From: an uncultured Candidatus Saccharibacteria bacterium
Lineage (GTDB): Bacteria > Patescibacteriota > Minisyncoccia > Phycocordibacterales > UBA2100
Reading direction: 5' to 3'
DNA length: 64,000 bases
NCBI GenBank assembly: GCA_964462785.1
Contig: CAYWZA010000002.1
Span: 1,061-65,060, forward strand
In this document: positions 10,489 to 34,447 of the stretch, piece by piece
Layout: each line of letters starts with the position of its first letter
How positions within the stretch are numbered: the first letter of the stretch is position 1
The notes under the pieces: model-generated
Seen by the model: only the letters and a program-made list of their open reading frames with translations
Told to the model about the DNA's origin: nothing
Databases searched by the model: none
Program-made: the position numbers and the translations under genes

Positions 10489-11940
10489 ATGAATGTCTCT
10501 TTTACGGGCTGGCGAACACAGCTCATTGTAGCCATCTCCTCACTTTTTATTCTATGTATTGTTGGAATGAGCACGCCGGCACATGCGCAGCAGGTGGATG
10601 CTGGGGCTAATGCGCAGTGTCAAGCTTCGTGGACCGGATATTACAGTGCGTGTATGGCGAGGCCGGGTGCAAGTGCTGCCGCATGTCAGCAAGAAGCTAA
10701 CGGGAAAAACCTAGCCACAGCATGCAGTGGAAAGTGTAGCGGTCTATGTAATTTCCCCATGGGAGGCGGAGCAATTGCAAATGTCTGTGGAGGGTTGAAG
10801 TGTGGTGACCAGCCCGAGGGGGCATCCGATGCGGGGGCACAAAAAGCCATGGAAATGGCGAAGCAGCTCATGGACGCCCTTAAAAGCAAATCTGGTGGGG
10901 GAGGGGGTGGCGCAGGAGGTGAAACACCGCCGTTTGAAAATACTCCTCCGCCTCCTCCTGATGCCGCAAACTTCAATACCAATAGCGCAACAAGCACGTT
11001 CGGGAGCATTTTTAATACGGGGACGAATAGCACCGCGAGCTTTACCCAAACCGCCGCGCAGCGTATTACCAACGCGGCTGCGGACATCTTCTCATCCATT
11101 GTGGGTGGTGCAGCCAGCGAGCAAGCGAATAATGCAAACAACACAGACGCGTCCGCCCTCAAAGGTTCACAACCCGTGGTCGGGAGCACGCAAGCAGAAC
11201 GCAACAAAAACAGCAAACGAGATCCAAAGGATGACATCATCACGCGGGGAAAAGATGACGCTGTTGCAATGAATCTCACATCGTTTTTCGATAGATTTTT
11301 CGGTCGGGATGAGCAGATGAATAATGGCGTATCATTTTTCGGGCGCCTGTGCACAGCACGACCATGGCAAGCGTCTCTAGTTGCGCGGGTACTTTCTGAA
11401 AACTTCTTTGATTCATTGTGTGCACGGCAGGGTTTTGCACTCGAGAATGGTCGCTCAGATGTTTTCAATGCACGTTTTGGCAGCGCCCTTGGCGGTGCTG
11501 AGCTTACGTGCCCGCATAAAGCGAAAATTGGAGACACGGTGAACATTGCATGGAACTGTGGCGCAACGCAGAGTGTTGGTCTTGGTTTTGATACGGGCGG
11601 GAGCCCGTCCGGCAGTGTTGCGCTGCAGCCAGAAGACACCGCAGAATACCAATTGCGTTGTGGGAATGGTGGTCGCGCCCGATGTCTCATTGAGATTGAA
11701 CGACCGCGTGCAGAAATTACCGCCTATCCAGCACTGGTGCGCCTTGGTGCGCGCACTGAAATTTTCTGGACGAGTGAGCACGTCGCCTCATGTGTCATCG
11801 AGGGCCCTGGGCTCAAAGAGCTAGGTGTTCGCGGCGCAGCGACTACTCCAGTTATTCTCACCGGCGTTACCTATACTATTGTGTGTCACGATGAGGCAGG
11901 CAGGGAAGCGCGAGACAGTGTGACCGTTGAAGCGAATTAA
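10489..11940 (+). CDS. Secreted paralog-family protein P1 (483 aa): signal peptide, Cys-rich N-terminal module, Gly-rich motif, C-terminal twin beta-domain
   Basis: Signal peptide ends ...TPAHA. The N-terminal motif is CQASWTGYYSAC and the Gly run is GGGGGGAGGETPP. The GRLCTARPW...FFDSLC motif is shared with P2. The C-terminal twin domain aligns with the C-termini of the 476-, 819- and 2785-aa proteins. Confidence 0.7.
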   Translation: MNVSFTGWRTQLIVAISSLFILCIVGMSTPAHAQQVDAGANAQCQASWTGYYSACMARPGASAAACQQEANGKNLATACSGKCSGLCNFPMGGGAIANVCGGLKCGDQPEGASDAGAQKAMEMAKQLMDALKSKSGGGGGGAGGETPPFENTPPPPPDAANFNTNSATSTFGSIFNTGTNSTASFTQTAAQRITNAAADIFSSIVGGAASEQANNANNTDASALKGSQPVVGSTQAERNKNSKRDPKDDIITRGKDDAVAMNLTSFFDRFFGRDEQMNNGVSFFGRLCTARPWQASLVARVLSENFFDSLCARQGFALENGRSDVFNARFGSALGGAELTCPHKAKIGDTVNIAWNCGATQSVGLGFDTGGSPSGSVALQPEDTAEYQLRCGNGGRARCLIEIERPRAEITAYPALVRLGARTEIFWTSEHVASCVIEGPGLKELGVRGAATTPVILTGVTYTIVCHDEAGREARDSVTVEAN

Positions 11941-11948
11941 TAGCCGGT

Positions 11949-13379
11949 ATGTACGCAATGCGAATACCACTCAGCATTCTACTCAGCGTGATTGTTGCGG
12001 GAGCTTTCGCTGTGCATCATGCAGCCGCGCAAGAGACCGCGGGACAGGTGGATAGCTCGAATAAAATTTGCGCCAGCTGGTGGAAGCAGTGTGAGGGGAA
12101 ACCTTGTGCATCAAACCCGCCCGCATGCTCTCAGCAAATAACAGGGGGTTCCGCATCCGGTCATTGCAAAGGACCATTATGCAATGCGGAATCATACACC
12201 GACGCACAAGGTGATACGAAGTCAATCCAAGATGCCATGGGCTTCTTTCAGCAGGCGATGGGCATGATTCAGGGTCTTTTGGGTAAGGGAGGGGGCGCGG
12301 GCGCAGGTGGTGGCGAGGTTCCGCCACCGACGGGCAGCTCAGGATCACTTCCCAACGTGGCTCCTTCACCGGCAGATTTCTTTTCGGGCGCGTCAGGGAG
12401 TGCATCCACTAATCAGAACACTGATACAGAAACGCAAAAAGCCGCTGAAGAACCAAGTGCGACTTTTTTAAACGCAGTCTCCAAAGGATTCAACACTATC
12501 ACTGACAAAATTACTGAAGTGACGGTTGGTATTACCGAAAAGGCGCCTACGAAAACGGATGAAAGTACAAAGACAATAGACGCGACGCGCCCAGACACCG
12601 AGAAAGGCACCGGCACCAGCGCGACGACCCCCAAAAAAGAAAGCAGCGGCGTATCTGGTTTTTATAATGCAAATACATTTGGTCCGAATGCCGATCTTTC
12701 GCTTATCGGTCGTGTGTGCGAGACGCGCCCGTGGGCAGCAGGACTCATCGCACGTTTCGTCGCACCATCATTTTTTGACAGCATGTGTAGCAAAGGGGGA
12801 TACCACGTTGGACCGTATGATCCAGCGACCCAAGTGCCGGTGAATGCCACCGAGATGGTGCAGTCGGCGAGAGAGCGCGCCGCTGCAGAGCAGGCGCTTA
12901 ATGCGCGCGGAGAGATGCAAAAAGGTATTCGCTGCGCACCGGTCATTATCCGCCAAGGGGCGGAGGCGGCGCTGGAATTTTCCTGCGGCACTGGTGAGCG
13001 TTTACTGCGCGCTGTCGGCTTCAGAGCGGGGGTCAACGATAGTAGGGTGATTGTCCGCCCGGAGAAGACCACGGTATATGGCATACAGTGCTCGAATAAT
13101 TTTGAGGCAGCATGTGAAGTGAAGGTTGTGAACCCGCGCGTGGTGGTGTGGTCAGAACCAAAAACAGTTCGCCTCGGGTCGCGCGCGGTCATTCGCTGGA
13201 ATACGCAGGATGTTGAAAAAGGATCATGCACCGTGAAAGGAAATAGCTTCTCGCAAACAGGCGAGCGTGGTGGTGCATCCACCGTCCCCATCACTGGAGC
13301 CACTCCCTTCACTGCAACTTGCACCGCACTCGACGGGCAGCCGATCACCGAAACTCTCACTGTCGATTTGGCGCTATAG
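11949..13379 (+). CDS. Secreted paralog-family protein P2 (476 aa)
   Basis: It has a signal peptide, the motif CASWWKQCEGKPC, the segment MGMIQGLLGKGGGAGAGGG, the GRVCETRPW...FFDSMC motif and a C-terminal twin domain. The architecture is the same as P1. Confidence 0.7.
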   Translation: MYAMRIPLSILLSVIVAGAFAVHHAAAQETAGQVDSSNKICASWWKQCEGKPCASNPPACSQQITGGSASGHCKGPLCNAESYTDAQGDTKSIQDAMGFFQQAMGMIQGLLGKGGGAGAGGGEVPPPTGSSGSLPNVAPSPADFFSGASGSASTNQNTDTETQKAAEEPSATFLNAVSKGFNTITDKITEVTVGITEKAPTKTDESTKTIDATRPDTEKGTGTSATTPKKESSGVSGFYNANTFGPNADLSLIGRVCETRPWAAGLIARFVAPSFFDSMCSKGGYHVGPYDPATQVPVNATEMVQSARERAAAEQALNARGEMQKGIRCAPVIIRQGAEAALEFSCGTGERLLRAVGFRAGVNDSRVIVRPEKTTVYGIQCSNNFEAACEVKVVNPRVVVWSEPKTVRLGSRAVIRWNTQDVEKGSCTVKGNSFSQTGERGGASTVPITGATPFTATCTALDGQPITETLTVDLAL

Positions 13380-17859: not shown

Positions 17860-18849
17860 ATGCGTAAAGCGCGTAAGTCTGCGAACGTTGAAGTCATCGC
17901 TTTTTCTATTTTTATAGTTGCACTGGTTGGCTATAACATTTTGGGCACATTCTCAATTCTTCCGCAGAGCATGGGGGCGGCAGCAGGATCTTCAAATATA
18001 GATTGTGGCGCATCTTGGAAAGGTTTCTATCAGAAAGCACAGGCTGATTATCCGCCACCCCAAGGGAATGATGCAAAATGGAAACAAGAGGCCGACACAA
18101 AAAATCAGACCCAGCCATGTAGCGAGCCTGGCGGTTCGGGTAAATGCGGATTTGGGATGGCCCCAAACATAACTCCAAATGCGACCGTATGTAGTGCGGA
18201 CAAGGACGATGCTGGTAATAAAGCCACCGATGAGGGGGCAAAACAAGCAATGGATGCTGCTAAAAAGGCAGCAGAAGATCTTGCAAAGAAGGCAGGTGAA
18301 AAAAAGGGAGGAGAGGGGGGAGGTATGCCACAGATGCCACAACCAAAAGAGAAGCCGCCAAAACAACCAGAAGATAATAAGGGATGCCCAGAAGGACAGG
18401 AGAAAACAGCAACCGGCTGCCAAGAGAAGAACCCGGCGGCAAACTTTGGAAGCGGCACGCTCTCAAATTTCCTCGAATCTTTTAAGAAAACTTTCGGGTT
18501 GACTGGCGGAAGTGGCAGTGGTGGCGAGACTCCGGAAGAAGCACTGGCGCGCATCGCTGGGGAGATAGATAAAGATCCAACCGTCCCTGCGCAAAGCAAG
18601 CCCGCCATTCAGGGATACGTAAAAGCATTTATTGACGAACATGGCGCAGCTCCTACAAGCGCGCAGATCAAGCAGGTCGTTGGCATGCCAGTGAATGAAA
18701 TTCCGCAAACCCGCGATGCTCTGCGCGAAGCTGCGCAAGGGCTGAATACTCTCGCACCATCCTCGGGTCTCTTCGGCAGCGGCAATAGCTCACCCGAAGA
18801 AACCAACGTTCTCAATCGAGTATTCAATTGGCTCAAGAATTTGATTTAA
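17860..18849 (+). CDS. Secreted paralog-family protein P3 (329 aa, short form with no C-terminal twin domain)
   Basis: It has an N-terminal TM/signal segment, the motif CGASWKGFY (compare CQASWTGYY in P1) and the Gly run KKGGEGGG. The protein is Lys/Glu/Pro-rich and low-complexity. Confidence 0.6.
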   Translation: MRKARKSANVEVIAFSIFIVALVGYNILGTFSILPQSMGAAAGSSNIDCGASWKGFYQKAQADYPPPQGNDAKWKQEADTKNQTQPCSEPGGSGKCGFGMAPNITPNATVCSADKDDAGNKATDEGAKQAMDAAKKAAEDLAKKAGEKKGGEGGGMPQMPQPKEKPPKQPEDNKGCPEGQEKTATGCQEKNPAANFGSGTLSNFLESFKKTFGLTGGSGSGGETPEEALARIAGEIDKDPTVPAQSKPAIQGYVKAFIDEHGAAPTSAQIKQVVGMPVNEIPQTRDALREAAQGLNTLAPSSGLFGSGNSSPEETNVLNRVFNWLKNLI

Positions 18850-19287: not shown

Positions 19288-21747
19288 GTGCGGGCAAGGT
19301 ATAGTAGAGGTATGTATGTCATGAGCAGGGCAGTGGCTGCGTTGTTGGTAATTGCAGGTGCATCTGCGGCAGTGTTTTTCACGATACCTTTTGGAGCGGC
19401 AGCAGCGGAAACGTCCTGCAAAGTCTCTAGCGCTGTCGCGGTGCAGCAAACAAAAGATGCTCAGGGGAATATTGTCTCCACCACCAAAGATCTTGATGTA
19501 AAAGCAACAGAAGATGCGTGCGATGACGGGAAGATATACACCATCGAACCCATCGAACAAACAACGACGTGCGCGTATGCATACAAAATAACAGTAACTG
19601 TAAACCCAGTAACGACAGCAGGCGCTCCACTGCCGCCAGGATATTATCGATACAAAAAACCAGAAGGAACCGATTACATCGCGGTTCCTTGCGTTGCAGG
19701 AAAAGCCGCCATTCCGACGGGGGCAGCGGGGGCTGCGGTAAGAAATGGATTGGGAGATAAAGTTGCGTCGCTCGCGAAAGCGTATGCAGCCAATGATAAG
19801 AACGCTATAAACGCCGCAACGCAAAGCTTGGCGACAGCGGGGCTTAACAAAAATAGCGCGGTCTTAGCGGCTTTTGGCGAGACAAGTAACCAACTCACGG
19901 CAGAAAACAAAGAAAAACTCGCGGGTGCGGATCAGCTCGCTACGCAACTCAGTTTACTTGAGAAGACCGCAGCAGGGGAAACTGCAGGAGTGCAGGCGGC
20001 ACTCGACTCCGTCAAAGATCAGCAATCGGGATTGCGAGAAGTGCTTCAGAGAAAGTTTGCTTTTGATGCTGTCCAAATGTATGAAAAACCAACAGTAACT
20101 TCCGCTGATCCAATAGTTACCGGCACGTTCGTGAACGATGAAAGACAGTGGAAAGAAAGTACGGGATTCAATACTCCAACAGAAAGTAACAAAAACGCGT
20201 ATCAAGAAGCACAAGCCGCCTATGAAAAATGTGCCGCGGGCTTATGGGTTCCTCGAGTAACCTGCAGTGCTGAGCTGGCGGAGCGTGATCGAGCTGCAGA
20301 GCGCGCAGGGTGCACGTGGGGGTTAAAGAACACATGGTCGATAAGTGGTGGGTGGCAGTGTTCAGAAACCAAAACCAGCACAGTGCCTTCCCCCGAGAGA
20401 AAACCACCGGCAGACGTGCCCGATGATCCGGCTCTCGCGCGCGAAAAACGCGCTCTTGAAGCTCAGATTGAGCTGTGCAGGCAATCTGGCTATGGAGCAG
20501 ATCCACTCACTGGGAAATGCACGCACGTTCGAGTGGATTCACAAGAAGAAGCGAACAGATGGGCGGCGGAAGAGGTACGCCGGTCGAGAGATACTCACTG
20601 TGCAATGCTGGAAGCGCAGTGTCAGAATGGCAATCAGCTTTGTCTTAGAGAATACGCAGGAACATGCCAAGGAGGCAATCCATACTCAGGCGTTGGTTCG
20701 GGTGTTGGCTCGGGTGGCGGTGGCGGCGGACTTGGAGGATTAGGAAATTTGTTTGGCGGTCAGCAGAACCCGGGGCAGGGGGGATTATCGCCGGGCGAGC
20801 AGCGAGCGCTTGAGCGCGAGTGTTTTGATTACGGCAATTCGACTGCGTGCAAAGCCCTGCAGCGGAATTGCCAAAGCTCACAGCAGCAGGGAGGTAGCGG
20901 CATCATGCAGATTATTCCCATGATCACTTCGCTCATCGGCGGGCAAAGCGGCGGGCTGGGCGGGCTCAACAAAGAGCAGTGCGCATCGCTCGACAAATCA
21001 ATCAGCAACAGCATGTGCCGCCAATATGCAGGCACGCAATTCCAAAATGGTCGTTGCGAATGCCCTAATGATAAAGAATGGAGCGGGACGGAATGCCGTA
21101 CTAAAAATACCTGCGCGCAATATCCCGGCACCGAGCTAAAGAACGGGCGCTGCGAATGCCCGGCAGATAAGCAGTGGGATGGTGCGCGGTGTGTGGGCAG
21201 CGATGGCAGTACTCAGAACCCAAATGATAATCGCGAGCCTGAGCTTGCATGCTCGCCGCCGATTGCCGACATTGATGAAACGCCGATTGCAATCTCATGG
21301 CAATGTTTTGGCGCTGATGTGTCGAGTGGCGATGGTTTTAATACCGATGGCAAGACATCTGGATCAGCAACCACCAAGCTGAAATCCGCGGATCTGAATG
21401 CGGATGCGACAAACGTCGATCTCACCCTCACCTGCAGCAAGGGAACAACTCAGAAAAAAGCGCTGTGCCCGATCGAGATCAACCGCCCGCTCATCGTGGC
21501 AGTGGTCAATCCGAGTGTTGTTGAAAAACGCGGAGACACAGCAAACATCGGCTGGATTGTGAAAGGTATGAAAGAAGGGAATGAGGTCTGCGAGCTCACG
21601 AGCAACAAACATGCTGACTTTTCGAAAAAGGGACGCAATGGGGTGTTTGCCACACCGCCGATAGAAGAAACGACAACGTTCACCATCAGATGCACGACCC
21701 GCGCTGGAGCGACAAAGAAAGTCGATCTTGAGGTCAGAATCAAATAG
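19288..21747 (+). CDS. Secreted paralog-family protein P4 (819 aa) with EGF-like Cys repeats and a C-terminal twin beta-domain
   Basis: It has a signal peptide and a Gly run (GVGSGVGSGGGGGGLGGLG). A Cys motif NGRCECP.DK.W.G..C is repeated twice. The C-terminal 170 aa align with the C-termini of P1, P2 and P5. Confidence 0.7.
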   Translation: MRARYSRGMYVMSRAVAALLVIAGASAAVFFTIPFGAAAAETSCKVSSAVAVQQTKDAQGNIVSTTKDLDVKATEDACDDGKIYTIEPIEQTTTCAYAYKITVTVNPVTTAGAPLPPGYYRYKKPEGTDYIAVPCVAGKAAIPTGAAGAAVRNGLGDKVASLAKAYAANDKNAINAATQSLATAGLNKNSAVLAAFGETSNQLTAENKEKLAGADQLATQLSLLEKTAAGETAGVQAALDSVKDQQSGLREVLQRKFAFDAVQMYEKPTVTSADPIVTGTFVNDERQWKESTGFNTPTESNKNAYQEAQAAYEKCAAGLWVPRVTCSAELAERDRAAERAGCTWGLKNTWSISGGWQCSETKTSTVPSPERKPPADVPDDPALAREKRALEAQIELCRQSGYGADPLTGKCTHVRVDSQEEANRWAAEEVRRSRDTHCAMLEAQCQNGNQLCLREYAGTCQGGNPYSGVGSGVGSGGGGGGLGGLGNLFGGQQNPGQGGLSPGEQRALERECFDYGNSTACKALQRNCQSSQQQGGSGIMQIIPMITSLIGGQSGGLGGLNKEQCASLDKSISNSMCRQYAGTQFQNGRCECPNDKEWSGTECRTKNTCAQYPGTELKNGRCECPADKQWDGARCVGSDGSTQNPNDNREPELACSPPIADIDETPIAISWQCFGADVSSGDGFNTDGKTSGSATTKLKSADLNADATNVDLTLTCSKGTTQKKALCPIEINRPLIVAVVNPSVVEKRGDTANIGWIVKGMKEGNEVCELTSNKHADFSKKGRNGVFATPPIEETTTFTIRCTTRAGATKKVDLEVRIK

Positions 21748-22367: not shown

Positions 22368-22535
22368 AACAGCGCAGCACAAAGTCAATCCCCCGAAATC
22401 AGCCAAAATATGGCGGGTTTCGGGGGATTTTTTAATGGCACACACTATCCCCACCTTTCAATTACACAGCGCCGCAGAGAGGCGCATAGTTATTACCAGA
22501 ACAAAGGAAGACAGAAGTATACAGGGAGGACCTTC

Positions 22536-26089: not shown

Positions 26090-29000
26090 ATGGTACGCGT
26101 TTTATGCGGGTTAATCTTTGTATGCACACTCGCATCTTTTGTCCACACAACCTCAGCACAAGCTCAAAGTAAAAATTGTACGCCCGGGGGTACCTGCAGC
26201 ACCGAATTGGAAGGGGATACTACCACCACCGTTAGTGCCGGAGAAGACAAGGGTACCGCCACACAAGATACGCAACAGACAGGAAGCTGCACAAAAGAGC
26301 TGCAAGCGGCAGGAAAATGTAAGCCGGAGTGTCCAAAAGTAAACTATTCGAGTGTAACCGGTGGGATTGTCACCTGCTACAGCGAGGTGAGCGACAGCTG
26401 CTATATGAATGATAACGCCGGCACTGCTGAGTGTTCGAGTGACGAGATGCAAAAAATTATTGACGGGAAAACTCCTCCGCAAACTACCGATTACGTAGGT
26501 ACGCCGGGGTCACAGAGTGGCTCCTCTAGTGGGGTTCAAAGTCCTGAGATCGAAGCACAGAAGGCATTGCGCGACGCGGAATATAAGTTGGCACAGGCAC
26601 AAAAAAATTATGATCAGTGCTGGTGGGGTTGTGCTGATGAAAAAGCGGCGCTTGAGCAAGCTCAACAAACACGCGATGCAGTGCAAGATTCTGCAGATTA
26701 TCTTAACGAAATTGCCAATAAACCACCCGGTACCTACATACCCGAAACCCCATTGAATACAGCGTTGCAAAATAGTTGGGCTAACAATGTATTGCAACAG
26801 CCCGCACCGGCAGTAACAGAGAGTCGCTTGGGCGATTTCGGTAGCGGATTACGCGAAGCGCTCAGTCCTGATTCTTTTTCGAACTCAGCCTTTCGAGATC
26901 AGTGGAACGGGTGGAATCCAAACGTAACACCGAGCGACGGGGCGTTCAATCGTTTTGATTTTGGAAATAATAGCGGATTCAACTCATTTGGGCAGTCGGT
27001 CGGCAGTGATATTTCTGGAGGGCTGAGTGCTGGTCCGAGCTCATTCACTCCTTTTTCTTTTGACAGTGGCTTAACTGGGAGCCCGTACGATGGGTCCGCC
27101 CCGTTCGAGCCATTCGACTATGAAACTTCCCCCATCGGACCGGGTTGGGGGAATGACGACCTCGGAAAACTATCAAATTTCGATTTCTCGAATGCGCCGC
27201 TGCAGCCAAGCACTCTGCAAGATCTATCGAATTTAAATAACGGGTTATTACCCACACTCCCCAGTGTTTCAGATCCACTTGGTGCCCTGAAAAGTTTGGA
27301 TTCGGAGCAACTTCCTACGGTGTCAGATGCTCAATCACCGAATGATTTTCTTGGACTCAAGGCTATCGCAGAGCAACAACCGCCTGAAGGCAGCGGATTG
27401 AGTGCCGAGGATTTCAGCGAGCGCCTCGAAGTGTTTAAAAAAGGATTCGGCAATGTGGTGGACAGCCTCACTGAGGGGGTGCAGGGTATTTTTGCGGGAG
27501 ACATCAGCGCACCTGATTTTTGGGATAAAACACTTAAAAATATCGGCGTTGGTGTCAACGCTGGTTTGGGTGAAGGGGGAGTACGCCTCGGCGGCATCCT
27601 CGACTACTCTCCGCTAAGCGATGGCGGGCTATTGCCTGGTCTGCGGCAGACGGTCAAAGACGTGTTTGGGTGGGGAAGTGATGTCGCGACACCACCCGAG
27701 ATACCATCGGGGATACAAGGCGGCGGAGCGCTGACCGCAGGTGAGTCATATCGGCGAGAGCTCGATGCTGCGAAACAAGCATCCGCAGCTGCGGGCGAGC
27801 GCGCACGGCGAGCAGACGAAAACGCTCGCAGCACGGGATCCTATGATCCAGACAATGCCTTTGAAGTGGAAAGATACAATGCGGCGCAGGCAGAAATAAA
27901 AGCCGCACGTGAGGAGCAAGCAGCTGCGCAAGCGCGGCTTGCGGCAGCACAGGCGGATGTTGATCGTATCCGCGCGCGCGACAACCAAGTCCCCGGGCAG
28001 GGGAGCATTGCGAATACGGGCGTGAATGAAGCTAAGGTGGTGGCAGATTCGGGCGTACGCGATACACAGGGAACAGAAAGTCTTGCGTACCAGCGTGCAG
28101 CAAAAGACTACCAGGCATTATTACCCCTCGCGGCTCCGGTTACCAACGCTCTGCAAGACGCGAATAGCGCCTGGATAAAACGAGCTGAAGAAATAGGGCT
28201 CATTGAAAATATCGGAACAGCTGATAAGCCGCAATATCGAATACGCCCTGAACTCACGGAAACGCAACGGATCAATAAAATGGGAATGCTGCGCGACGAG
28301 ACCGATCGTCTCAATTTGGCAAAAGATCAATACAAGACATATGCAGAGACGCTCAAAGATGCTCGCGACAAAACTCTGTATGCGGCAGGTGCAGATCCGT
28401 TGTTTTCGGACGCCGCGCGGGCAAATGCACTTTTGGGCGATATGCGTCTAAGACCTGAACAAGAAATACCCATTGATGAATATTGGCAAGACAAAAATGG
28501 ACTGGCAATGGGAGTGGGCGCAGCGGGAGCTATGGGAAGATATGTTCTTAGAATGGATCCTTATCAACCAGTCATCAACTCAAATGCGCAAGAAATTGCA
28601 TTTAATGAACTGCAGGCAAAACAAGAAGCACTCATTCAATCATTAGCGGGATGTACCGACTGTCAAAATGTTATTGAAGCGATTGAACGCAACAATGAAC
28701 TTGCAAAACAATTTGAAAGCGGACAGTTTGAGGGAGCGCAAAAAGACTATCTCATAAAACTTTCAGACCAAAACCCTATTCAAAGGGATCTTCCAGTAGG
28801 GGATTTAACCACACAAGAATTAGCTTCGCGGGCAAGCAATGAATGGGGAAGGCTGCTCCGCGGTACGCAAGAATATCTTGGCGCGGAAATGGGTAAGGCG
28901 TGGGAGGAGGGAGAATATGGCAAAGCAACAGCTCTTTTCTTGCTACAAACCCCAGGGCAGATCACACAAGGCTTGCTCGGGGCTGAGTCGCTCCAAGGAC

Positions 29001-32000
29001 TTGGGCAAACACTATATGGTGCTGACACCAGTATTCTCGGGCTGACAATTCCCGGAGGGGAAGCGGGCTATAATATTGTAAGAAATGTCACCGATGCAGG
29101 GACTTTATCTGTAGTTACGGGTGCCTACTTATTTCCAGGACCGGCAGGGTTAGCACTAAGGGGAGCTGATAGCCTTGCCGCCAGCGCGGGGCGCTTTGCG
29201 GGTAACATTGCGGACGTCAGATCCGCCTTGAATGTTGCCGATAGTGGAGCGGGCTTTGGGTATGATTTTTCAGGGCGACCATCGGCGGATGCAATCATTC
29301 GTGATGGGGGCTTAGCAGTGGTACCCGAGAACAACATATCTACTGCGCCCGCGCGTGATGGTGGCTCAAGTCCTCCGCCTCAATTAACCTCGAACGCACC
29401 ATCTCCCACATCACGCTCCGTCACTCAACCCCCTCCATTGCGTAATGAATTCTCACCCACAGGTGGTGCGCGCACCAGTGGCAATGCGGTGCAAGGAGCG
29501 CCCCCCTCCGCCTCATTTATTCCAGGGACTTCGCCGCTCGGCGATCTTGCAGACGCAATGCGTCGAGGATCACCGACACTGATCACCCCGTCTAATTTCG
29601 GTCGGACCGGCGACGACGTTCTCTTCGGTGGTGCGGCGAATGACAATCTAATGGGCTCTACTCCTGCCGGAGGTCCGCCTTTGGAAAATAGGTGGTTTGC
29701 ATTTGCGCGCGCTCCCGAGGATGGAGGGGGAGCGGGGCGTGGAGGCACGATCATACCGTTTACTCCACGAGCGTCCGAGCTCCCAAGTGTCGGCGGTGGG
29801 GACACTATTGTATTTAGAGAAGGTTTTGGCAGTGATGCACCACCAGCTCGCGTGGACGCAGGTGCTATTGATGACGCGACACTGCGTGAGCTCGAAAACA
29901 TTCTCGCGAACGAGCCGGATCAATTTGTGTTTCGTACTGTTGATGATGCCGTCACACCCGATGGCGTGACAGATCTGTTGCAGCGCCGATACGGAGGAGC
30001 ATCTCTAGAGGAAATCGCAAAAGCACGGGAGGCAATACGGCTGAATGAAGCTGCCCGTCGTCTTGATTCTCAAAACACTTCGCAGGCAACCGCGGATGCA
30101 AGCACTTTGCGTGCCCGCGCTGCACAAATCGCAACCGACATCAATGATCCTGCTTTGGGTAGATTGGCTGAATCGTGGGGAGGGGAAAGAGCGCCGAGCG
30201 CAGCAGGTGCTGGCGTTCCAGATAGTGTCGTTGCAGCAGAGGCGGCACAGCCAAAACCCGCTTCTGGAATTTTATCCCCCATTACCAACACTCCATTCGC
30301 AAGAGCGTTGTGCGTTATAGGTGGCTTGTTCTGTGGGTCGCAAGCTGTTCCTGGGCAGTTGGTAAACGATCTCAATCCGTTGGGTATAAGTTCGGCAAAT
30401 GCAAAGCCGGCAGCGCTTCCGGTCCAATTAGTGCATGACGGTGTCTTGGGGGTTGAGACAGGTGCGGCGTCGACATACAACCCGAATGTGGTCGGGTGGA
30501 GAACGGGTGGGGAAAAACTTGCAACAGGCGGAAGATACAATCCCGATGAATTTGAAGCTGCGCTACAGACAGGATTGGCGGAACAGTATCGAATGGGGCA
30601 CAGCAGATACCCCAATGTCGGGTACGCGCTTGTGGAAGCGGAAGGCAGAAAACTTATTGTACGCATTAATGACAACGGTCCATTAGTTCGCAATCGCATC
30701 ATCGATCTCAACGAAGCCTCGATGCGCTATTTAAGTGGTGGTAGATATGGCAACAATTCGGGAGTATTGCAAAATACACGAGTAACTGTTTTGGCAGGAC
30801 AAAACTATACGCCGGGACCGCTTGCGAATGATGCCACTCTTCTCGCTCGGGCTGAAATACCGCCCGCAAGTCCAACAGCACCTCGCATAGAAACAGGATC
30901 ACTGAGCGCCCCTAAGTCAGCGGTGGATTCCGCAGTTGATGAAATTACAAAAAGGGCGGAGCAGGTGGGTGACGCTGTTAGAAAAGCAGGCGATGATCTT
31001 GCGAAAGCACTCGATATACGCCCCGGCACTCCGGAAACTGACTTCATGAAAAACGTGCAAGGGAAATTAGTGGAAACACCACCACCAGCGGCATTGATCA
31101 AAAATTTTGACGTTAACAATCACACTTCCGCAGAAGCAAGAGCGGTCCAGGAGGCGCTTAGAGCCCAGGGGTATGACACAGCTGTTGATGGAGTTATCGG
31201 TCCGCAGACAATACGCGCGCTCGAAAGCGCGAGAGTGGATATTGATGGTGCGTTGCGCAATATTTTCACAGACCAAGCTGACTATCAGCAAGCGCGCAGG
31301 ATATTCCTCGAAAGATTTAAAGGTATGCCCAAAAATTTTGAGCAACCACTGCTCACCATGTTGCGAAAGATGCAAGAGGCTGGTCAGGCGCTGCCCGGCG
31401 ATAATCAGCCGATCGTGCTGGTTAACGTAAGCGGAAGCAGAGAGGGGGTTGCCATTATGTCGCTCACACACAACGACGGGCTCCTTCTTTGGGAGGGAAG
31501 TCCGACACTCAGAGTCGGCGTAGCAGCTAATGGCCCGATTGATTGGGCAAAAGATTTTATTGGCTCGAACAAAACGATAGTGGGCTCAGTAGCAAAAATT
31601 ATTGGTGGGGAACATCGTGGAGACAAGGCTTGGGCAGTGGGCGCGCTTTATCGGGAGTCAATAGATGGGGGATTACAGAACGAGAGAGTCACATGGTATC
31701 ACGGAGTTTCTAATCGCGCCGTTACACCAGGCCAGCGCCCCAACGCAACATCGGGGTGTGTTTCAATGTGTTCTCTAGTGATGCAAAATTTGTATGATCA
31801 AGTGCTGGGAACCCCTGGTGTGGGGGAACCGGGGTGGCAACTCGCAGGTAGAGATGGGGCAGTGCGGGGAGCAAATAAGATTAACGGGGGATATACGTAT
31901 GAATTTTCTGAGCAAGTGACAAACAGCGTTGGTGTTGCAGAAAATAAGGCAATTGCCCAGAAAGAGCCGGTGATGGTTGCTGATGCTGCGCCAGGTGGTG

Positions 32001-34447
32001 GTGCGACTCAGGGTCTTACTCCTGAAACCGCCGAAATCGCTCGGGTGTATGAGATATCCGGAGAGACTGGAACGATACCAAAGGGAGCGATCCTTGAGGT
32101 GAGCCCGGATGGAAAAACATTAACCTATGGCGAGACCGTGTACCAAGCAAAACAGATTTCTGGAGAACCGATTCCGCTAGAACCCGCATCAGCACTTTCA
32201 ATTATAGATTTGAAACCTTTACAAGTGGACTGGCTAGACAGAATACAGATTGAAGGCGTTCCGAAGCTGGGACTAGAACTTCAGGTGTGGCGACCAGATT
32301 TCAACGCCGCGGTTGAAAATGTGATGCGGGGGGTCAATGATGGCATCTCTGAATTCAAACAAATCGTCAGTGGCGTACCCGGCGACATATCAAAATGGGT
32401 TTCTAGAAACAGCTTTAATGTCAGTGTTAGTCTTGAACCGAATCCGGCATGGCTTAAAGCGGTTGGAGATAGTGCTAATACTGCTGCAGAGCGAATAACA
32501 ATAATGTATCGGGACGCATATGCTGCTTTGGACGACTTCCCGTCAGCACCTCCCACGCCAGGTGACCCATTATTCGGTCTATTCGCCTTGGGTAGCACGC
32601 GACGCACATCAAATGCACCATCCCAAACACCAATACCCGAGGGGGTAGACACTCCGCCCGCAGGACTTGGGTTGCAGGCACCACCTTCAAAAATAGCAGG
32701 CACGGGTGATACACAGAAATTTGTACCTACCTCGCGCAACATTAATCCAGCACCGGTACGCGCGATTGATGATATTCCCGCACCGACAGATGGCGTAACT
32801 CCGCCATTGTCACGGACTCAACCTGATGTTACTGAGGGTATGAGTAAATCTGGTCGCACGGGAGGAGCTTCGATCACTGATGACACTGCCACAAACGGGA
32901 CAGTGCCCGCGAAACAAGACACTCCGCCCGCAGGACTTGGGTTGCAGGCACCACCTTCAAAAATAGCAGGCACGGGTGATACACAGAAATTTGTACCTAC
33001 CTCGCGCAACATTAATCCAGCACCGGTACGCGCGATTGATGATATTCCCGCACCGACAGATGGCGTAACTCCGCCATTGTCACGGACTCAACCAGTTGGT
33101 GATTCCGCTGCGAACATGACAGAACTCATGAGCCGAAGCGCACAGCAAAGTGCGCCAGCCACAGCCGCTTCAGTGGGTGCCATGAAGAAAGTTTCAAATA
33201 CAATCCGCGCTTGTGTAAATGGGGGATGGACGACGGCGAAGTGTGCGGGTGTTGCAATAGTCGCAACGTGGGCTGGGACATGCGCACTAACGGGGTACGA
33301 CGGTGTTCCATGCAATTGGCAAGGGACAAGGACAGGCACATGCATATCGGACGGAGGGAGGAAATGTGTTACAGGAGCATCCCCAGGAGCGGATGCAACA
33401 AAAGATGGTACAGAAAAAACACCACCTGCGGATACAGATAAAGACAGAACTGGCGCAGGCGCACCTCCACCAGATGATACAGGCGCAGGGAGGAGACCGC
33501 CTCCAAGTGCCCAGACGCCACCCAATAGTGGCACTGCAGCACCTACACGCACCACACAAGGAGGATCGGGTGGAAGTGGTCTTGGTGGATTGATGGGAAT
33601 GCTCGGGCAATTTATGCAGATGCTTACCGGGCAGGGAGCGCAAGAGCCAGATGCATCACCAACAGGATCGCCTAAGGCACCGACAACAGTGACTCTCTCC
33701 TGCGATCCGTCAATTATTCTCAATCGTGGCACGACAACGATTCGCTGGGCGTGCTCAGGTAATGAGCGCAGTACGGGAGTGAATTTCGATACACGCGGCG
33801 CGCCGTCGGGATCGGTGGAGCGGGGTATTGATACCATCGAGCAGAGCATGCAATTTGGCGTTTCGTGTGGCGGCAGCGCGCCGCGCAGCTGCTCAGTGCG
33901 CGTACTGCACCCGCGCATCACACTCACCGCATCTCCGGGCGAAGTGGAAAGCGGCACGCACGCACGACTCAATTGGGCTGGAGTGGGCGTGCGATCATGC
34001 GGAGTGCTCGCGCCTACCTCAAATGAAATTGCGCGCGGGACGGCGACAGGATTTGTCGACACGCCCGATCTCACACGCTCACAGCGCTTTGCGGTGGTCT
34101 GCTCTACTGATGCAGGCAAGCCTGTGCATGAATTCATTACCGTGCGCGTCGCAGGCGATGACACGGATCCGGAAGTAGTGGAGATTCCTGAAGCGTATAT
34201 GCGCACCACGCCTTCCTCCGCGGCGTCAGCGCTGCCCACCGCAGTGAGCGATCTGCCCTCAGAAGAGGGGAGTAGTTTCTTCGATGGTTCTGCAAATACT
34301 CCATCGCCCAGCGCACCACAAGAGCCGATCACACCGCCCCCCGGCACGTTCACCGCAACTGATGCTCAAGGCAACGCCGTCTTCCTCTGTGATCCTGAAG
34401 CAGGTATTGATACCTATATTTCGTGCATATCCGGAGGAAGGTGGTAG
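26090..34447 (+). CDS. Giant secreted multidomain protein P5 (2785 aa) with coiled-coil regions, a PG_binding_1 domain, a YkuD-like L,D-transpeptidase fold, an RlpA-like double-psi beta-barrel, an internal exact repeat and the family C-terminal twin beta-domain
   Basis: Signal peptide is MVRVLCGLIFVCTLASFVHTTSAQA. The RlpA/DPBB-like segment is TGGRYNPDEFEAA...LIVRINDNGPLVRNRIIDLNEASMRYL. The PG_binding_1 segment is TSAEARAVQEALRAQGYDTAVDGVIGPQTIRALE. The YkuD-like segment is WYHGVSNRAVTPGQRPNATSGCVSMCSLVMQNLYD. The Gly/Met motif is GGSGGSGLGGLMGMLGQFMQMLTGQG. The C-terminal 200 aa align with P1, P2 and P4. Confidence 0.8.
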   Translation: MVRVLCGLIFVCTLASFVHTTSAQAQSKNCTPGGTCSTELEGDTTTTVSAGEDKGTATQDTQQTGSCTKELQAAGKCKPECPKVNYSSVTGGIVTCYSEVSDSCYMNDNAGTAECSSDEMQKIIDGKTPPQTTDYVGTPGSQSGSSSGVQSPEIEAQKALRDAEYKLAQAQKNYDQCWWGCADEKAALEQAQQTRDAVQDSADYLNEIANKPPGTYIPETPLNTALQNSWANNVLQQPAPAVTESRLGDFGSGLREALSPDSFSNSAFRDQWNGWNPNVTPSDGAFNRFDFGNNSGFNSFGQSVGSDISGGLSAGPSSFTPFSFDSGLTGSPYDGSAPFEPFDYETSPIGPGWGNDDLGKLSNFDFSNAPLQPSTLQDLSNLNNGLLPTLPSVSDPLGALKSLDSEQLPTVSDAQSPNDFLGLKAIAEQQPPEGSGLSAEDFSERLEVFKKGFGNVVDSLTEGVQGIFAGDISAPDFWDKTLKNIGVGVNAGLGEGGVRLGGILDYSPLSDGGLLPGLRQTVKDVFGWGSDVATPPEIPSGIQGGGALTAGESYRRELDAAKQASAAAGERARRADENARSTGSYDPDNAFEVERYNAAQAEIKAAREEQAAAQARLAAAQADVDRIRARDNQVPGQGSIANTGVNEAKVVADSGVRDTQGTESLAYQRAAKDYQALLPLAAPVTNALQDANSAWIKRAEEIGLIENIGTADKPQYRIRPELTETQRINKMGMLRDETDRLNLAKDQYKTYAETLKDARDKTLYAAGADPLFSDAARANALLGDMRLRPEQEIPIDEYWQDKNGLAMGVGAAGAMGRYVLRMDPYQPVINSNAQEIAFNELQAKQEALIQSLAGCTDCQNVIEAIERNNELAKQFESGQFEGAQKDYLIKLSDQNPIQRDLPVGDLTTQELASRASNEWGRLLRGTQEYLGAEMGKAWEEGEYGKATALFLLQTPGQITQGLLGAESLQGLGQTLYGADTSILGLTIPGGEAGYNIVRNVTDAGTLSVVTGAYLFPGPAGLALRGADSLAASAGRFAGNIADVRSALNVADSGAGFGYDFSGRPSADAIIRDGGLAVVPENNISTAPARDGGSSPPPQLTSNAPSPTSRSVTQPPPLRNEFSPTGGARTSGNAVQGAPPSASFIPGTSPLGDLADAMRRGSPTLITPSNFGRTGDDVLFGGAANDNLMGSTPAGGPPLENRWFAFARAPEDGGGAGRGGTIIPFTPRASELPSVGGGDTIVFREGFGSDAPPARVDAGAIDDATLRELENILANEPDQFVFRTVDDAVTPDGVTDLLQRRYGGASLEEIAKAREAIRLNEAARRLDSQNTSQATADASTLRARAAQIATDINDPALGRLAESWGGERAPSAAGAGVPDSVVAAEAAQPKPASGILSPITNTPFARALCVIGGLFCGSQAVPGQLVNDLNPLGISSANAKPAALPVQLVHDGVLGVETGAASTYNPNVVGWRTGGEKLATGGRYNPDEFEAALQTGLAEQYRMGHSRYPNVGYALVEAEGRKLIVRINDNGPLVRNRIIDLNEASMRYLSGGRYGNNSGVLQNTRVTVLAGQNYTPGPLANDATLLARAEIPPASPTAPRIETGSLSAPKSAVDSAVDEITKRAEQVGDAVRKAGDDLAKALDIRPGTPETDFMKNVQGKLVETPPPAALIKNFDVNNHTSAEARAVQEALRAQGYDTAVDGVIGPQTIRALESARVDIDGALRNIFTDQADYQQARRIFLERFKGMPKNFEQPLLTMLRKMQEAGQALPGDNQPIVLVNVSGSREGVAIMSLTHNDGLLLWEGSPTLRVGVAANGPIDWAKDFIGSNKTIVGSVAKIIGGEHRGDKAWAVGALYRESIDGGLQNERVTWYHGVSNRAVTPGQRPNATSGCVSMCSLVMQNLYDQVLGTPGVGEPGWQLAGRDGAVRGANKINGGYTYEFSEQVTNSVGVAENKAIAQKEPVMVADAAPGGGATQGLTPETAEIARVYEISGETGTIPKGAILEVSPDGKTLTYGETVYQAKQISGEPIPLEPASALSIIDLKPLQVDWLDRIQIEGVPKLGLELQVWRPDFNAAVENVMRGVNDGISEFKQIVSGVPGDISKWVSRNSFNVSVSLEPNPAWLKAVGDSANTAAERITIMYRDAYAALDDFPSAPPTPGDPLFGLFALGSTRRTSNAPSQTPIPEGVDTPPAGLGLQAPPSKIAGTGDTQKFVPTSRNINPAPVRAIDDIPAPTDGVTPPLSRTQPDVTEGMSKSGRTGGASITDDTATNGTVPAKQDTPPAGLGLQAPPSKIAGTGDTQKFVPTSRNINPAPVRAIDDIPAPTDGVTPPLSRTQPVGDSAANMTELMSRSAQQSAPATAASVGAMKKVSNTIRACVNGGWTTAKCAGVAIVATWAGTCALTGYDGVPCNWQGTRTGTCISDGGRKCVTGASPGADATKDGTEKTPPADTDKDRTGAGAPPPDDTGAGRRPPPSAQTPPNSGTAAPTRTTQGGSGGSGLGGLMGMLGQFMQMLTGQGAQEPDASPTGSPKAPTTVTLSCDPSIILNRGTTTIRWACSGNERSTGVNFDTRGAPSGSVERGIDTIEQSMQFGVSCGGSAPRSCSVRVLHPRITLTASPGEVESGTHARLNWAGVGVRSCGVLAPTSNEIARGTATGFVDTPDLTRSQRFAVVCSTDAGKPVHEFITVRVAGDDTDPEVVEIPEAYMRTTPSSAASALPTAVSDLPSEEGSSFFDGSANTPSPSAPQEPITPPPGTFTATDAQGNAVFLCDPEAGIDTYISCISGGRW
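32648..33093 (+). repeat. Exact 176-bp direct repeat (period 270 bp) inside the giant gene
   Basis: The segment 32648-32823 matches 32918-33093 with no visible mismatch. Each encodes DTPPAGLGLQAPPSKIAGTGDTQKFVPTSRNINPAPVRAIDDIPAPTDGVTPPLSRTQP. The ORF track shows identical antisense ORFs over both copies. Confidence 0.85.

What the first reader, a model, noticed from the sequence alone, without database searches (positions are those of the whole stretch)
10489..34447. Accessory-like block of paralogous secreted proteins sharing a C-terminal twin beta-domain, including a 2785-aa giant with several peptidoglycan-related domains
Five signal-peptide proteins share recurring modules. They are P1 (483 aa), P2 (476), P3 (329), P4 (819) and P5 (2785). 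The first module is a Cys-rich N-terminal segment with C[QA]ASW. The second is a Gly/Met-rich motif resembling M..M..L.G.GGG.GGG. The third is a roughly 170-aa C-terminal tandem pair of beta-domains (pattern C.P....G....I.W.C.......G..F.T.G..SGS.......T..Y.L.C, twice) found in P1, P2, P4 and P5. P5 additionally combines a PG_binding_1 domain, a YkuD-like L,D-transpeptidase motif (HG...SGCVSM..NLYD) and an RlpA-like double-psi beta-barrel. All three act on or bind murein. An episymbiotic or small-genome bacterium with type IV pili nearby could plausibly use these proteins to remodel or breach a host cell wall. They could also serve as pilus- or surface-associated adhesins. The C-terminal twin domain may be a family-specific anchoring or export module not described in domain databases.
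Basis: partly seen in the sequence, partly recalled or inferred. Interest (0 to 1): 0.85.

Follow-up and report, generated by a model that had tools for sequence, protein, structure and literature searches.

The report
Modular secreted cell-wall proteins of a Parcubacterium
A groundwater Parcubacteria (CPR) genome encodes a set of secreted proteins built from shuffled modules, including a pair of immunoglobulin-like domains and cell-wall-cutting domains; the set is real and mostly unnamed, but it is an expected kind of CPR envelope toolkit rather than a new type of system.

Summary
The ORFs, N-terminal signal sequences and shared twin domain are real. An AlphaFold model of P2 gives the twin at pLDDT about 97. 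It is a tandem immunoglobulin-like β-sandwich. The unit has no Pfam model but is very common: 7653 representative clusters, with up to 30 copies per protein, also outside CPR.

The ordered two-domain cassette recurs at or near the C-terminus of unrelated Patescibacteria secreted proteins. These include small RlpA-like proteins that are 55–65% identical to P5's DPBB domain.

In P5, the RlpA-like DPBB and the PG-binding domain are supported. The YkuD assignment fails every profile, homology and fold test, and only a short motif remains.

The region is not one accessory block. P1/P2 and P4 sit among housekeeping genes and keep their positions in related genomes. Only Px (Amidase_2) plus P5, about 12.7 kb, is missing from four syntenic relatives.

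In relatives the same chromosomal slot holds DPBB+twin, VanY and M15 peptidase genes.

Best reading: a clade-specific cell-wall remodelling and envelope toolkit, with P5 as a giant lineage-specific variant. An attack on a host wall is possible but untested.

The parts
10489..11940 (+). P1 (483 aa). Signal peptide, Cys-rich N-domain ending in an amphipathic helix plus poly-Gly, a disordered linker, the helical 'RPW' module, and the ig1-ig2 twin (nt 11497-11931).
   Evidence: GenBank calls a shorter 393-aa form, but the family alignment supports the long form with a signal peptide.
11949..13379 (+). P2 (476 aa), a tandem paralogue of P1 with the same architecture. The twin lies at nt 12921-13373.
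   Evidence: AF2 model pLDDT: N-domain about 90, RPW 85-90, twin about 97, linker below 50.
17860..18849 (+). P3 (329 aa). It has a P1-like N-domain with the CGASW motif and no twin. It ends in a short amphipathic segment.
   Evidence: BLASTP to P1, E 2e-9. Orthologue in L008 (383 aa, E 2e-13). A protein with P3-like organisation (read by eye from the printed sequence, no BLAST or HMM hit) occupies the same slot in L093.
19312..21747 (+). P4 (811 aa from the ATG at 19312; the ORF opens at GTG 19288). Signal peptide, a long Cys-rich region with Gly-rich stretches and two EGF-like Cys repeats, and a C-terminal ig1-ig2 twin (nt 21241-21738).
   Evidence: P4-like genes with the twin lie at the syntenic position in L015, L016, L020, L032, L040, L044 and L063.
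22536..25493 (+). Px (985 aa from M43; the ORF opens at 22410). A secreted protein with one Amidase_2 (N-acetylmuramoyl-L-alanine amidase) domain at aa 597-683 of the long form.
   Evidence: Amidase_2 scores 36.9 bits against a cutoff of 26. PHROG amidase match. A hairpin at 22387-22429 covers the upstream ATG. Absent from syntenic relatives.
26090..34447 (+). P5 (2785 aa), a giant secreted protein with a single N-terminal hydrophobic segment. About 1400 aa at the N-terminus have no family match. Then come the DPBB, PG-binding, orphan β-rich region, a duplicated 90-aa segment, a Cys-rich region, the twin, and a 97-aa tail.
   Evidence: Absent from syntenic relatives within the 10-kb flanks.
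30461..30733 (+). P5 RlpA-like double-psi β-barrel (aa 1458-1548).
   Evidence: DPBB_1 scores 32.5 bits against 28.8. PA4485 matches at E 3.5e-4. It is 55-65% identical to CPR RlpA-like proteins. It keeps the subfamily's invariant INDNGPL and IDLNE.SM.Y positions.
31130..31237 (+). P5 peptidoglycan-binding domain (aa 1681-1716).
   Evidence: PG_binding_3 scores 27.5 bits against 24.6, and PG_binding_1 E 0.013. It matches the PG-binding parts of NCBIfam muramidase models and PHROG endolysins.
31700..31768 (+). P5 YkuD-like motif HGVSNRAVTPGQRPNATSGCVSM (aa 1871-1893), inside an orphan β-rich region (about aa 1770-1940).
   Evidence: The motif occurs in 1 of 20000 shuffles. There is no Pfam, NCBIfam, PDB or homologue support. 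hhalign probability is 3%. AF2 pLDDT is about 30.
32647..33098 (+). Two 182-nt direct repeats (32647-32828 and 32917-33098, 99-100% identical, 270 nt apart). They duplicate a 90-aa Pro-rich segment of P5.
   Evidence: By my conversion of the contig range given, GenBank contig JACOYQ010000011.1 ends at about window 32745, inside the first copy.
33689..34153 (+). P5 ig1-ig2 twin (aa 2534-2688), followed by a 97-aa tail holding two Cys.
   Evidence: Twin HMM E 1e-26. Alignments.
34507..34547 (.). Perfect 19-bp inverted repeat 60 nt after the P5 stop. It is probably a bidirectional terminator between the convergent genes.
42314..43819 (-). A secreted protein outside the block (501 aa) with PG_binding_1 and two to three Ig-like units of the same family.
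   Evidence: PG_binding_1 E 2.8e-9. Twin HMM E 9.5e-10. Sequence.

Best explanation
These genes encode the Sec-secreted, disulfide-rich envelope and cell-wall-remodelling toolkit of one Parcubacteria clade near Ca. Kaiserbacteria.

The proteins are assembled from a small set of shuffled modules:
- a Cys-rich N-domain that ends in an amphipathic helix followed by poly-Gly;
- a long disordered Ser/Thr/Gly/Pro linker;
- a small helical 'RPW' module;
- an ordered pair of Ig-like β-sandwiches (ig1-ig2).

In this genome and its relatives these modules are combined with peptidoglycan-cleaving heads: the RlpA-like DPBB lytic transglycosylase, VanY/M15 peptidases and Amidase_2.

P1/P2 are a conserved tandem pair without a recognisable catalytic domain, so they are probably structural or scaffolding surface proteins.

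Px+P5 is a lineage-specific insertion. It pairs an amidase, which would strip stem peptides, with a giant protein carrying a PG-binding domain and an RlpA-like DPBB, which would cut the resulting denuded glycan.

The Ig-like twin is a non-catalytic spacer, retention or binding module. It is not an export signal.

Shown: the modules, the folds, the domain identities, the synteny and the insertion.
Inferred: the enzymatic activities, the amidase-to-DPBB order of action, and the surface location.
For: Modules and fold:
- Self-BLAST and HMMs show the shared modules.
- The AF2 model of P2, built on 39 homologues, is confident for all three folded modules.

Family:
- 44 of the best 150 representative clusters have the RPW+twin architecture. 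The seven whose source names were looked up are all unnamed or 'hypothetical protein', from Parcubacteria or Patescibacteria where an organism is given.

Synteny:
- The order PolA-holA-P1like-P2like-SpoU-LTD-Mur-RuvA-S20-(P3)-P4like recurs across the related loci, each of which covers part of it. Shown directly: L002 carries it from PolA to RuvA and L008 from P1-like to P4-like, while L009, L010 and L011 cover only the PolA/holA-P1like-P2like end (L010 on to the Mur ligase). Coordinate-level hits place ten RuvA-anchored metagenome loci in the same arrangement.

Link to PG hydrolysis:
- CPR RlpA-like proteins P0152, P0156 and P0157 end in the same ig1-ig2 twin.
- The RPW module ends a Peptidase_M15_3 protein in L010.
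- In L093 the slot between holA and SpoU holds, in order, a protein of P3-like organisation (by eye), a twin-only protein, DPBB+twin, VanY, and a Cys-rich protein with Ig units and the twin.
- In this window PG_binding domains co-occur with Ig units in P5 and in ORF 42314-43819.
- Px (Amidase_2) lies directly upstream of P5.
- RlpA's DPBB is the catalytic lytic-transglycosylase domain. It needs amidase-denuded glycan, and amidases and RlpA are proposed to work in tandem (PMC6895207).
Against: - No activity, localisation or expression data exist.
- P1-P4 have no catalytic domain and no solved relative by sequence, so their role is inferred from gene context only.
- About 1400 aa of P5 and its aa 1770-1940 region match nothing.
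- The Ig unit also forms long arrays in adhesin-like giants of other phyla. This fits an adhesive role directed at another cell equally well.
- Conserved synteny does not separate self-wall functions from host-wall functions in an obligate symbiont.
- The Gly/Met motif and the Cys-rich segments of P4 and P5 are not demonstrably homologous to those of P1 and P2.
Confidence: 0.5

Rival explanations
1. Host-directed weapon and adhesin set. Px and P5 are deployed against the peptidoglycan of a host bacterium to open it for nutrient or DNA uptake. The Ig-containing proteins P1-P4 mediate attachment to the host, possibly together with type IV pili.
For: - The organism is a Patescibacterium. Cultivated members are episymbionts.
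- Secreted PG hydrolases and giant surface proteins have been proposed to act on hosts in Vampirococcus (PMC8080830).
- Giant, rapidly evolving exoproteins are reported in P. danicum (PMC11809585).
- Px+P5 is lineage-specific, as expected for host-range determinants.
- Ig-like repeats build adhesins and the GhpA grappling hook.
- Pilus genes flank the region, and P4-like genes abut pilin-like genes in relatives.
Against: - P1/P2 and P4 are conserved at fixed positions among housekeeping and Mur-ligase genes.
- The small DPBB+twin homologues sit in core contexts. One lies after SecY in the ribosomal operon (L092) and one in the PolA-SpoU slot (L093). This looks like housekeeping autolysins.
- No toxin, immunity or secretion-system genes are adjacent.
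- P4 and the pilin-like genes are convergent, so they are not co-transcribed.
Confidence: 0.3
2. The ig1-ig2 twin, or the RPW module, is a dedicated cell-envelope targeting module that tethers diverse cargo to the wall or S-layer. It would be a functional analogue of SPOR, LysM or SLH. The set of proteins would then be defined by shared anchoring rather than by shared enzymology.
For: - The ordered cassette lies at the extreme C-terminus of P1/P2-family proteins, P4, and the RlpA-like P0152, P0156 and P0157. There it occupies the position that SPOR holds in proteobacterial RlpA (PMC6895207).
- The RPW module ends an M15 peptidase.
- There is no LPXTG-like hydrophobic tail or other anchor.
Against: - In P5 and in L020, L032, L040 and L044 the twin is followed by 97-146 further residues.
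- The L002 group has only one Ig domain.
- The unit occurs 5-30 times in tandem in giant proteins, which is typical of spacers.
- P5 and ORF 42314-43819 already have a bona fide PG-binding domain.
Confidence: 0.15
3. P5 is partly an assembly or annotation artefact, for example a chimeric ORF created by misjoining at the internal repeat.
For: P5 holds a 99-100% identical 182-nt direct repeat. By my conversion of the contig range, the GenBank contig of the same genome breaks inside it.
Against: - The frame stays open for 8.4 kb across the repeat, and the composition matches the flanks.
- Contigs of three length classes carry identical P4 (10-20, 20-50 and 50-200 kb), the longest on record being 65365 bp.
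- The parts on either side of the repeat (DPBB and PG-binding upstream, twin downstream) form a combination also seen in small homologues.
Confidence: 0.05

Closest known systems
RlpA (rare lipoprotein A) lytic transglycosylases, e.g. P. aeruginosa RlpA and PA4485 (Pfam DPBB_1)
   Same: P5 aa 1458-1548 is a DPBB_1 domain. It is 55-65% identical to CPR RlpA-like proteins and keeps their invariant residues. It sits next to an amidase gene, which matches the amidase-then-RlpA logic described for denuded glycan (PMC6895207).
   Different: It has no lipobox and no SPOR domain. The domain is embedded in a 2785-aa protein along with a PG_binding domain and an Ig-like twin. CPR homologues carry the twin where RlpA carries SPOR. 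Activity has not been tested.
Giant lineage-specific surface proteins of CPR bacteria (Vampirococcus lugosii, Patescibacterium danicum)
   Same: It is very large, carries a single N-terminal hydrophobic segment (a probable Sec signal), has no full-length homologues, is modular, includes adhesion-type β-domains, and lies near type IV pilus genes.
   Different: Those proteins are described with WD40, PKD, FhaB or DUF11-type domains. P5 combines PG-binding and DPBB catalytic-type domains with the cysteine-bridged Ig twin.
Modular Gram-positive autolysins and phage endolysins (catalytic head plus wall-binding module)
   Same: The head-plus-binding-module logic is the same. PG_binding and Amidase_2 domains match endolysin profiles.
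   Different: There is no phage context. The genes are chromosomal and syntenic, and the shared non-catalytic module is an Ig-like pair whose binding specificity is unknown.
Bacterial Ig-like repeat adhesins (invasin, SiiE, Lap, GhpA grappling hook)
   Same: The β-sandwich fold and the tandem arrangement are the same. The unit family forms arrays of up to 30 copies in giant proteins.
   Different: There is no Pfam Big or PKD membership. Here the unit occurs as a fixed ordered pair with conserved Cys pairs, mostly at the C-terminus of otherwise unrelated proteins.
PG_binding_1-YkuD L,D-transpeptidases
   Same: A PG-binding domain is followed about 150 aa later by a β-rich region holding H-G-x17-S-G-C-V-x-M...LYD, which resembles the Ldt active-site motif.
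   Different: There is no profile, homologue or fold support. Membership is not established.

Membership tests
DPBB_1 / RlpA-like lytic transglycosylase | Significant match to the DPBB_1 profile | tested here: met
   32.5 bits against a gathering score of 28.8 for the excised segment, and 27.8 bits in the whole protein. PDB PA4485 matches at E 3.5e-4.
DPBB_1 / RlpA-like lytic transglycosylase | Conserved core residues of the (CPR) RlpA-like subfamily | tested here: met
   Among the 12 aligned sequences, P5 keeps all 43 invariant columns, including INDNGPL and IDLNE.SM.Y. Identity to relatives is 55-65%.
DPBB_1 / RlpA-like lytic transglycosylase | Canonical RlpA architecture (lipoprotein plus C-terminal SPOR) | tested here: not met
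   No SPOR hit in Pfam. The signal peptide has an SPase-I-type AQA site.
DPBB_1 / RlpA-like lytic transglycosylase | Lytic transglycosylase activity on denuded glycan | not testable with these tools
   This needs a biochemical assay.
YkuD L,D-transpeptidase (PF03734) | Match to a YkuD profile or to solved L,D-transpeptidases | tested here: not met
   No Pfam hit at E up to 1. No NCBIfam hit. No Ldt among PDB phmmer hits at E up to 10. hhalign against verified YkuD, LdtMt2, 8da2 and 4lzh sequences gives probability 3% over 21 columns.
YkuD L,D-transpeptidase (PF03734) | Active-site motif H-x(n)-[ST]-x-G-C-[IVL]-x-[MLIV] | tested here: met
   One occurrence at aa 1871-1893. It appears in 1 of 20000 shuffles. 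The pattern was chosen after reading the sequence.
YkuD L,D-transpeptidase (PF03734) | YkuD β-sandwich fold | tested here: inconclusive
   The single-sequence AF2 model has pLDDT about 30 over this region. No homologues are available for an alignment.
PG_binding_1 / PG_binding_3 | Profile match | tested here: met
   PG_binding_3 scores 27.5 bits against 24.6, and PG_binding_1 E 0.013. NCBIfam and PHROG matches cover the same residues.
Ig-like β-sandwich (fold level) | Two seven-to-eight-stranded β-sandwiches that superpose on Ig-type domains | tested here: met
Named bacterial Ig families in Pfam (Big_x, PKD, CARDB etc.) | Profile match above threshold | tested here: not met
   No hits in P1, P2 or P4 at E up to 0.1. 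There are none above threshold over the repeats of the multi-copy relatives either.
C-terminal sorting or anchor signals (LPXTG/sortase, C-terminal TM, T9SS-type CTD) | A terminal hydrophobic tail or motif, and a strictly terminal position | tested here: not met
   No hydrophobic segment exists apart from the N-terminal one. The proteins end inside the last β-strand. The twin is followed by 97-146 residues in P5 and in four relatives.
Amidase_2 (Px) | Profile match | tested here: met
   36.9 bits against 26, and 26.9 bits for the excised segment. The apparent second amidase-like region and the M15-like N-terminus of Px are seen only by eye and have no profile support.
Genomic island / mobile element | Absence from syntenic relatives, together with mobility genes, flanking repeats or deviant composition | tested here: inconclusive
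   Px+P5 is absent from L015, L016, L020 and L063, where the P4-like gene abuts the homologues of 34564-35432. However, there are no integrase or phage genes, no repeats within either flank (repeats shared between the two flanks were not tested), and GC of 0.51-0.54 like the surroundings. P1/P2 and P4 are syntenic.

The most novel reading that the evidence does not exclude
The ordered, cysteine-bridged ig1-ig2 cassette, possibly together with the RPW helical module, is a Patescibacteria-specific envelope-targeting device. It takes the place that SPOR, LysM or SLH hold in other bacteria, and it tethers a whole suite of wall hydrolases and scaffold proteins. Within that suite, the lineage-specific pair Px+P5 is a giant, wall-anchored amidase and lytic-transglycosylase machine, possibly with a cryptic Cys-based L,D-transpeptidase-like domain. 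The episymbiont would use it to open the host's peptidoglycan at the contact site.
Probability: 0.15. Interest if true: 0.65.

Novelty: new variant of a known kind. Interest (0 to 1): 0.36.

Why it matters
Patescibacteria make up a large share of bacterial diversity, yet almost nothing is known about how they build, remodel and use their envelope. This locus gives three things that can be tested:

1. A conserved, unnamed two-gene family (P1/P2-like) with a confidently modelled three-module architecture. It could be added to domain databases.
2. A recurrent Ig-like cassette that occupies the position of SPOR in CPR RlpA-like enzymes.
3. A clear example of how a giant orphan surface protein (P5) is assembled from the clade's own module pool and inserted at a defined chromosomal site.

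None of this changes a paradigm. Modular wall hydrolases, Ig-like surface repeats and giant orphan proteins in CPR are all known themes.

Tried and rejected
1. The k-mer-limited homologue search with the twin alignment found only 3 proteins. This was misleading, because the exhaustive profile search found 7653 clusters.
2. The search for related loci with the twin alignment failed because no stretch was conserved enough. PolA and RuvA were used as synteny anchors instead.
3. Tests of the YkuD assignment:
   - Pfam on excised pieces, NCBIfam and PDB phmmer;
   - a homologue search of aa 1735-1935 (none) and a metagenome scan (none);
   - tblastn against plasmids (only chance hits);
   - single-sequence AF2 (pLDDT about 30, unusable, so no fold search was run on it);
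   - hhalign against a small alignment of PDB-verified L,D-transpeptidase sequences, which gave probability 3%.
4. The afdb50 fold library was unavailable.
5. A prophage or island origin for Px+P5 was rejected. PHROGs matched only the amidase and PG-binding parts, and neither flank contains repeats.
6. A profile of the P1/P2 family against PDB sequences found nothing significant. The folds of the N-domain and the RPW module remain unassigned, because the Ig hits dominate both fold searches.
7. An M15-like N-terminus and a second amidase-like domain in Px, seen by eye, got no profile or BLAST support. They are not claimed.
8. Homology of the Gly/Met motif in P4 and P5 to that of P1 and P2 is not significant.
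9. A type IV secretion context was considered after reading PMC12102498. No T4SS genes are in the window.
Full report
**What is there.** The window is a core chromosomal segment of a Patescibacteria (Parcubacteria) genome. Its PolA is 55-58% identical to two full-length relatives, an unnamed MAG and a Ca. Kaiserbacteria MAG, and 75% to a short fragment from Patescibacteria group bacterium UBA2105. Identical proteins occur in GCA_016181805.1, 'Parcubacteria group bacterium' HYT30. Each has one N-terminal hydrophobic segment and no other. This is Px, 22410/22536-25493, and it carries an Amidase_2 domain scoring 36.9 bits against a cutoff of 26. The region is not a contiguous block. tRNA-Lys, a SpoU methylase, an LTD-domain protein, a Mur ligase, RuvA, S20 and tRNA-Arg lie between P2 and P4. 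GC content is uniform at 0.51-0.54.

**The shared modules.** Self-BLAST links the C-terminal 150-170 aa of P1, P2, P4 and P5, with E from 1e-4 to 1e-22. It also links the N-terminal halves of P1 and P3, with E 2e-9. An exhaustive profile search with the RPW+twin alignment found 7653 representative clusters at E up to 1e-3, and 2977 at E up to 1e-10. Two classes dominate the best 150:
- 44 proteins, mostly of about 430-570 aa, have one full-length match. They are the P1/P2 family. The seven whose names were looked up are unnamed or annotated 'hypothetical protein', from Parcubacteria or Patescibacteria where an organism is given.
- 101 large proteins carry 3 to more than 30 tandem copies of the single unit. 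Some of these come from outside CPR, for example a Pseudomonadota 'choice-of-anchor U' protein and a JGI 'trimeric autotransporter adhesin'.

Pfam has no model that hits the unit.

**Architecture and fold.** A 39-sequence alignment of the P1/P2 family defines this order of parts:
1. signal peptide;
3. a low-complexity linker of about 130 aa;
4. a helical module with the invariant signature C..RPW...FFD.LC, called 'RPW' here;
5. two β-domains, ig1 and ig2.

**The twin as a cassette.** The ordered ig1-ig2 pair is still a recognisable, mobile cassette within Patescibacteria:
- It ends P1/P2-family proteins and P4.
- It ends small RlpA-like DPBB proteins of CPR. P0152, P0156 and P0157 score 22-58 bits for ig1 and 42-54 bits for ig2, and their twin finishes at the last residue.
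- Twins from these different families are about equally similar to one another. This points to module shuffling and not to one duplication lineage.

The cassette is not strictly terminal. P5 has a 97-aa tail after it. The P4-like proteins of L020, L032, L040 and L044 carry an extra β-domain of about 140 aa after it. The L002 group of P1/P2-likes has only ig2. These facts argue against a terminal sorting signal. A retention or binding role remains possible.

**P5 domains.**
- DPBB is supported. It scores 32.5 bits against 28.8 when excised. PA4485 matches at E 3.5e-4. It is 55-65% identical to CPR RlpA-like proteins, and it keeps all of that subfamily's invariant columns.
- PG-binding is supported.
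- YkuD is not supported:
  - no Pfam, NCBIfam or PDB hit;
  - no homologues of aa 1735-1935;
  - only chance hits in tblastn against plasmids;
  - AF2 pLDDT of about 30;
  - hhalign against PDB-verified L,D-transpeptidase sequences aligns only SGCVSM...LYDQV, at probability 3%.

The motif H[GS]-x12-20-[ST]xGC[IVL]x[MLIV] is nevertheless rare by chance, at 1 of 20000 shuffles. It also follows a PG-binding domain, which from my own knowledge is a common partner of YkuD domains. A very divergent YkuD-like domain therefore remains possible, and I put it at about one in three. The first roughly 1400 aa of P5 match no family.

P5 also holds two 99-100% identical 182-nt direct repeats. By my conversion of the contig range given, the GenBank contig of this genome ends inside the first copy.

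**Synteny and age.**
- The order PolA-holA-[P1-like][P2-like]-SpoU-LTD-Mur-RuvA recurs in the related loci, each covering part of it: L002 and L008 show most of it, and L009, L010 and L011 the PolA/holA-P1like-P2like end. Coordinate-level hits place ten RuvA-anchored metagenome loci in the same arrangement.
- More distant relatives with the same backbone (L045, L048, L057) have no room between holA and SpoU. P1/P2 are therefore a clade-specific but vertically inherited acquisition.
- P4-like genes with the twin lie about 3 kb beyond RuvA in seven loci.
- P3 has an orthologue in L008 and a fragment in L012.
- In L015, L016, L020 and L063 the P4-like gene is followed directly by the homologues of window 34564-35432, which encode a 158-aa protein and a pilin-like protein. 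After those come RuvX and PilM. The roughly 12.7 kb holding Px, a 130-aa ORF and P5 is therefore a lineage-specific insertion.
- The insertion has no integrase or phage genes, neither flank contains repeats, and its composition does not deviate.

**Link to cell-wall hydrolysis.** In L093 the holA-SpoU slot holds five genes in this order:
1. a protein with the N-domain/Gly-Met organisation of P3, judged by eye from its sequence;
2. a twin-only protein;
3. DPBB+twin;
4. a VanY peptidase;
5. a Cys-rich protein with Ig units and the twin.

In L010 a Peptidase_M15_3 protein ends in the RPW module. In the window, PG_binding_1 co-occurs with Ig units in ORF 42314-43819, and Px lies directly upstream of P5. 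RlpA's DPBB is the catalytic lytic-transglycosylase domain. It requires glycan strands denuded by amidases, with which it is proposed to work in tandem (PMC6895207).

**Interpretation.** The most economical reading is a clade-specific envelope and cell-wall-remodelling toolkit built from shuffled modules. P5 is a giant lineage-specific elaboration paired with an amidase (confidence 0.5). A host-directed role is plausible for Px+P5 in particular (0.3). Giant orphan surface proteins and secreted PG hydrolases are already proposed to mediate host interaction in CPR (PMC8080830; PMC11809585). However, the small DPBB+twin homologues sit in housekeeping contexts, and nothing here separates a self target from a host target.

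**Verdict.**
- Two of the three murein-related assignments hold.
- The twin is absent from Pfam, but it is a generic and very widespread Ig-like unit.
- The 'accessory block' is really a set of conserved syntenic genes plus one lineage-specific insertion.

Novelty is a new variant of known kinds: modular wall hydrolases, Ig-repeat surface proteins, and giant CPR orphans. Interest is moderate to low (0.36).

Noticed in passing
window 59907-63320 (+): The isoleucyl-tRNA synthetase (1137 aa) has a complete histidine-phosphatase domain (His_Phos_1, E 1.2e-37) at aa 492-672, which splits the class-I catalytic domain match. This is an unusual fusion or insertion.
   Followed up: no
window 32647-32828 and 32917-33098: P5 contains a 182-nt direct repeat that is 99-100% identical. 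By my conversion of the contig range, GenBank contig JACOYQ010000011.1 of the same genome ends at about window 32745, inside the first copy. The repeat probably broke that assembly.
   Followed up: partly
window 3052-7221 (+): A 1389-aa ORF with PG_binding_1 (E 3.8e-9) and a weak PKD match lies between TsaE and PolA. In L093, TsaE is followed directly by PolA. This is therefore probably another lineage-specific insertion of a large wall-associated protein.
   Followed up: partly
window 42314-43819 (-): A 501-aa secreted protein combines PG_binding_1 with two to three Ig units of the same family as the twin. It lies outside the reported block.
   Followed up: partly
window 14638-15660 (-) and homologues in L002, L008, L010, L093: A Cys-rich lamin-tail-domain (LTD) protein with an N-terminal TM segment is conserved next to the Mur ligase across all the relatives examined. 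Its function is unknown.
   Followed up: no
window 47618-48319 (+): A free-standing LAGLIDADG-type ORF (E 4.7e-7) lies immediately after ribosomal protein L19.
   Followed up: no
window 22387-22429 and 34507-34547: A 19-bp hairpin, 89% complementary, covers the first ATG of the Px ORF. The true start is therefore probably M43 at 22536 (MRIVIAC...). A perfect 19-bp hairpin follows the P5 stop between the convergent genes.
   Followed up: partly
window 10489 vs 10759 (P1 start): GenBank annotates P1 as a 393-aa protein that starts at Met91 and lacks the signal peptide and half of the N-domain. Another source and the family alignment support the 483-aa form.
   Followed up: yes
L002 14361-15692 (+): The Kaiserbacteria relative has an extra 443-aa ORF between the LTD gene and the Mur ligase. 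This ORF is absent from the window.
   Followed up: no
L020 6253-8625, L040 1786-4254, L044 1941-6104, L032 6788-9613: P4-like proteins of these relatives share a further conserved C-terminal domain of about 140 aa after the twin, with the signature TI.W...GSA.SLWLV...Y.W..PA.GS.C...LYTP.NA. It is absent from the window's P4 and P5.
   Followed up: no
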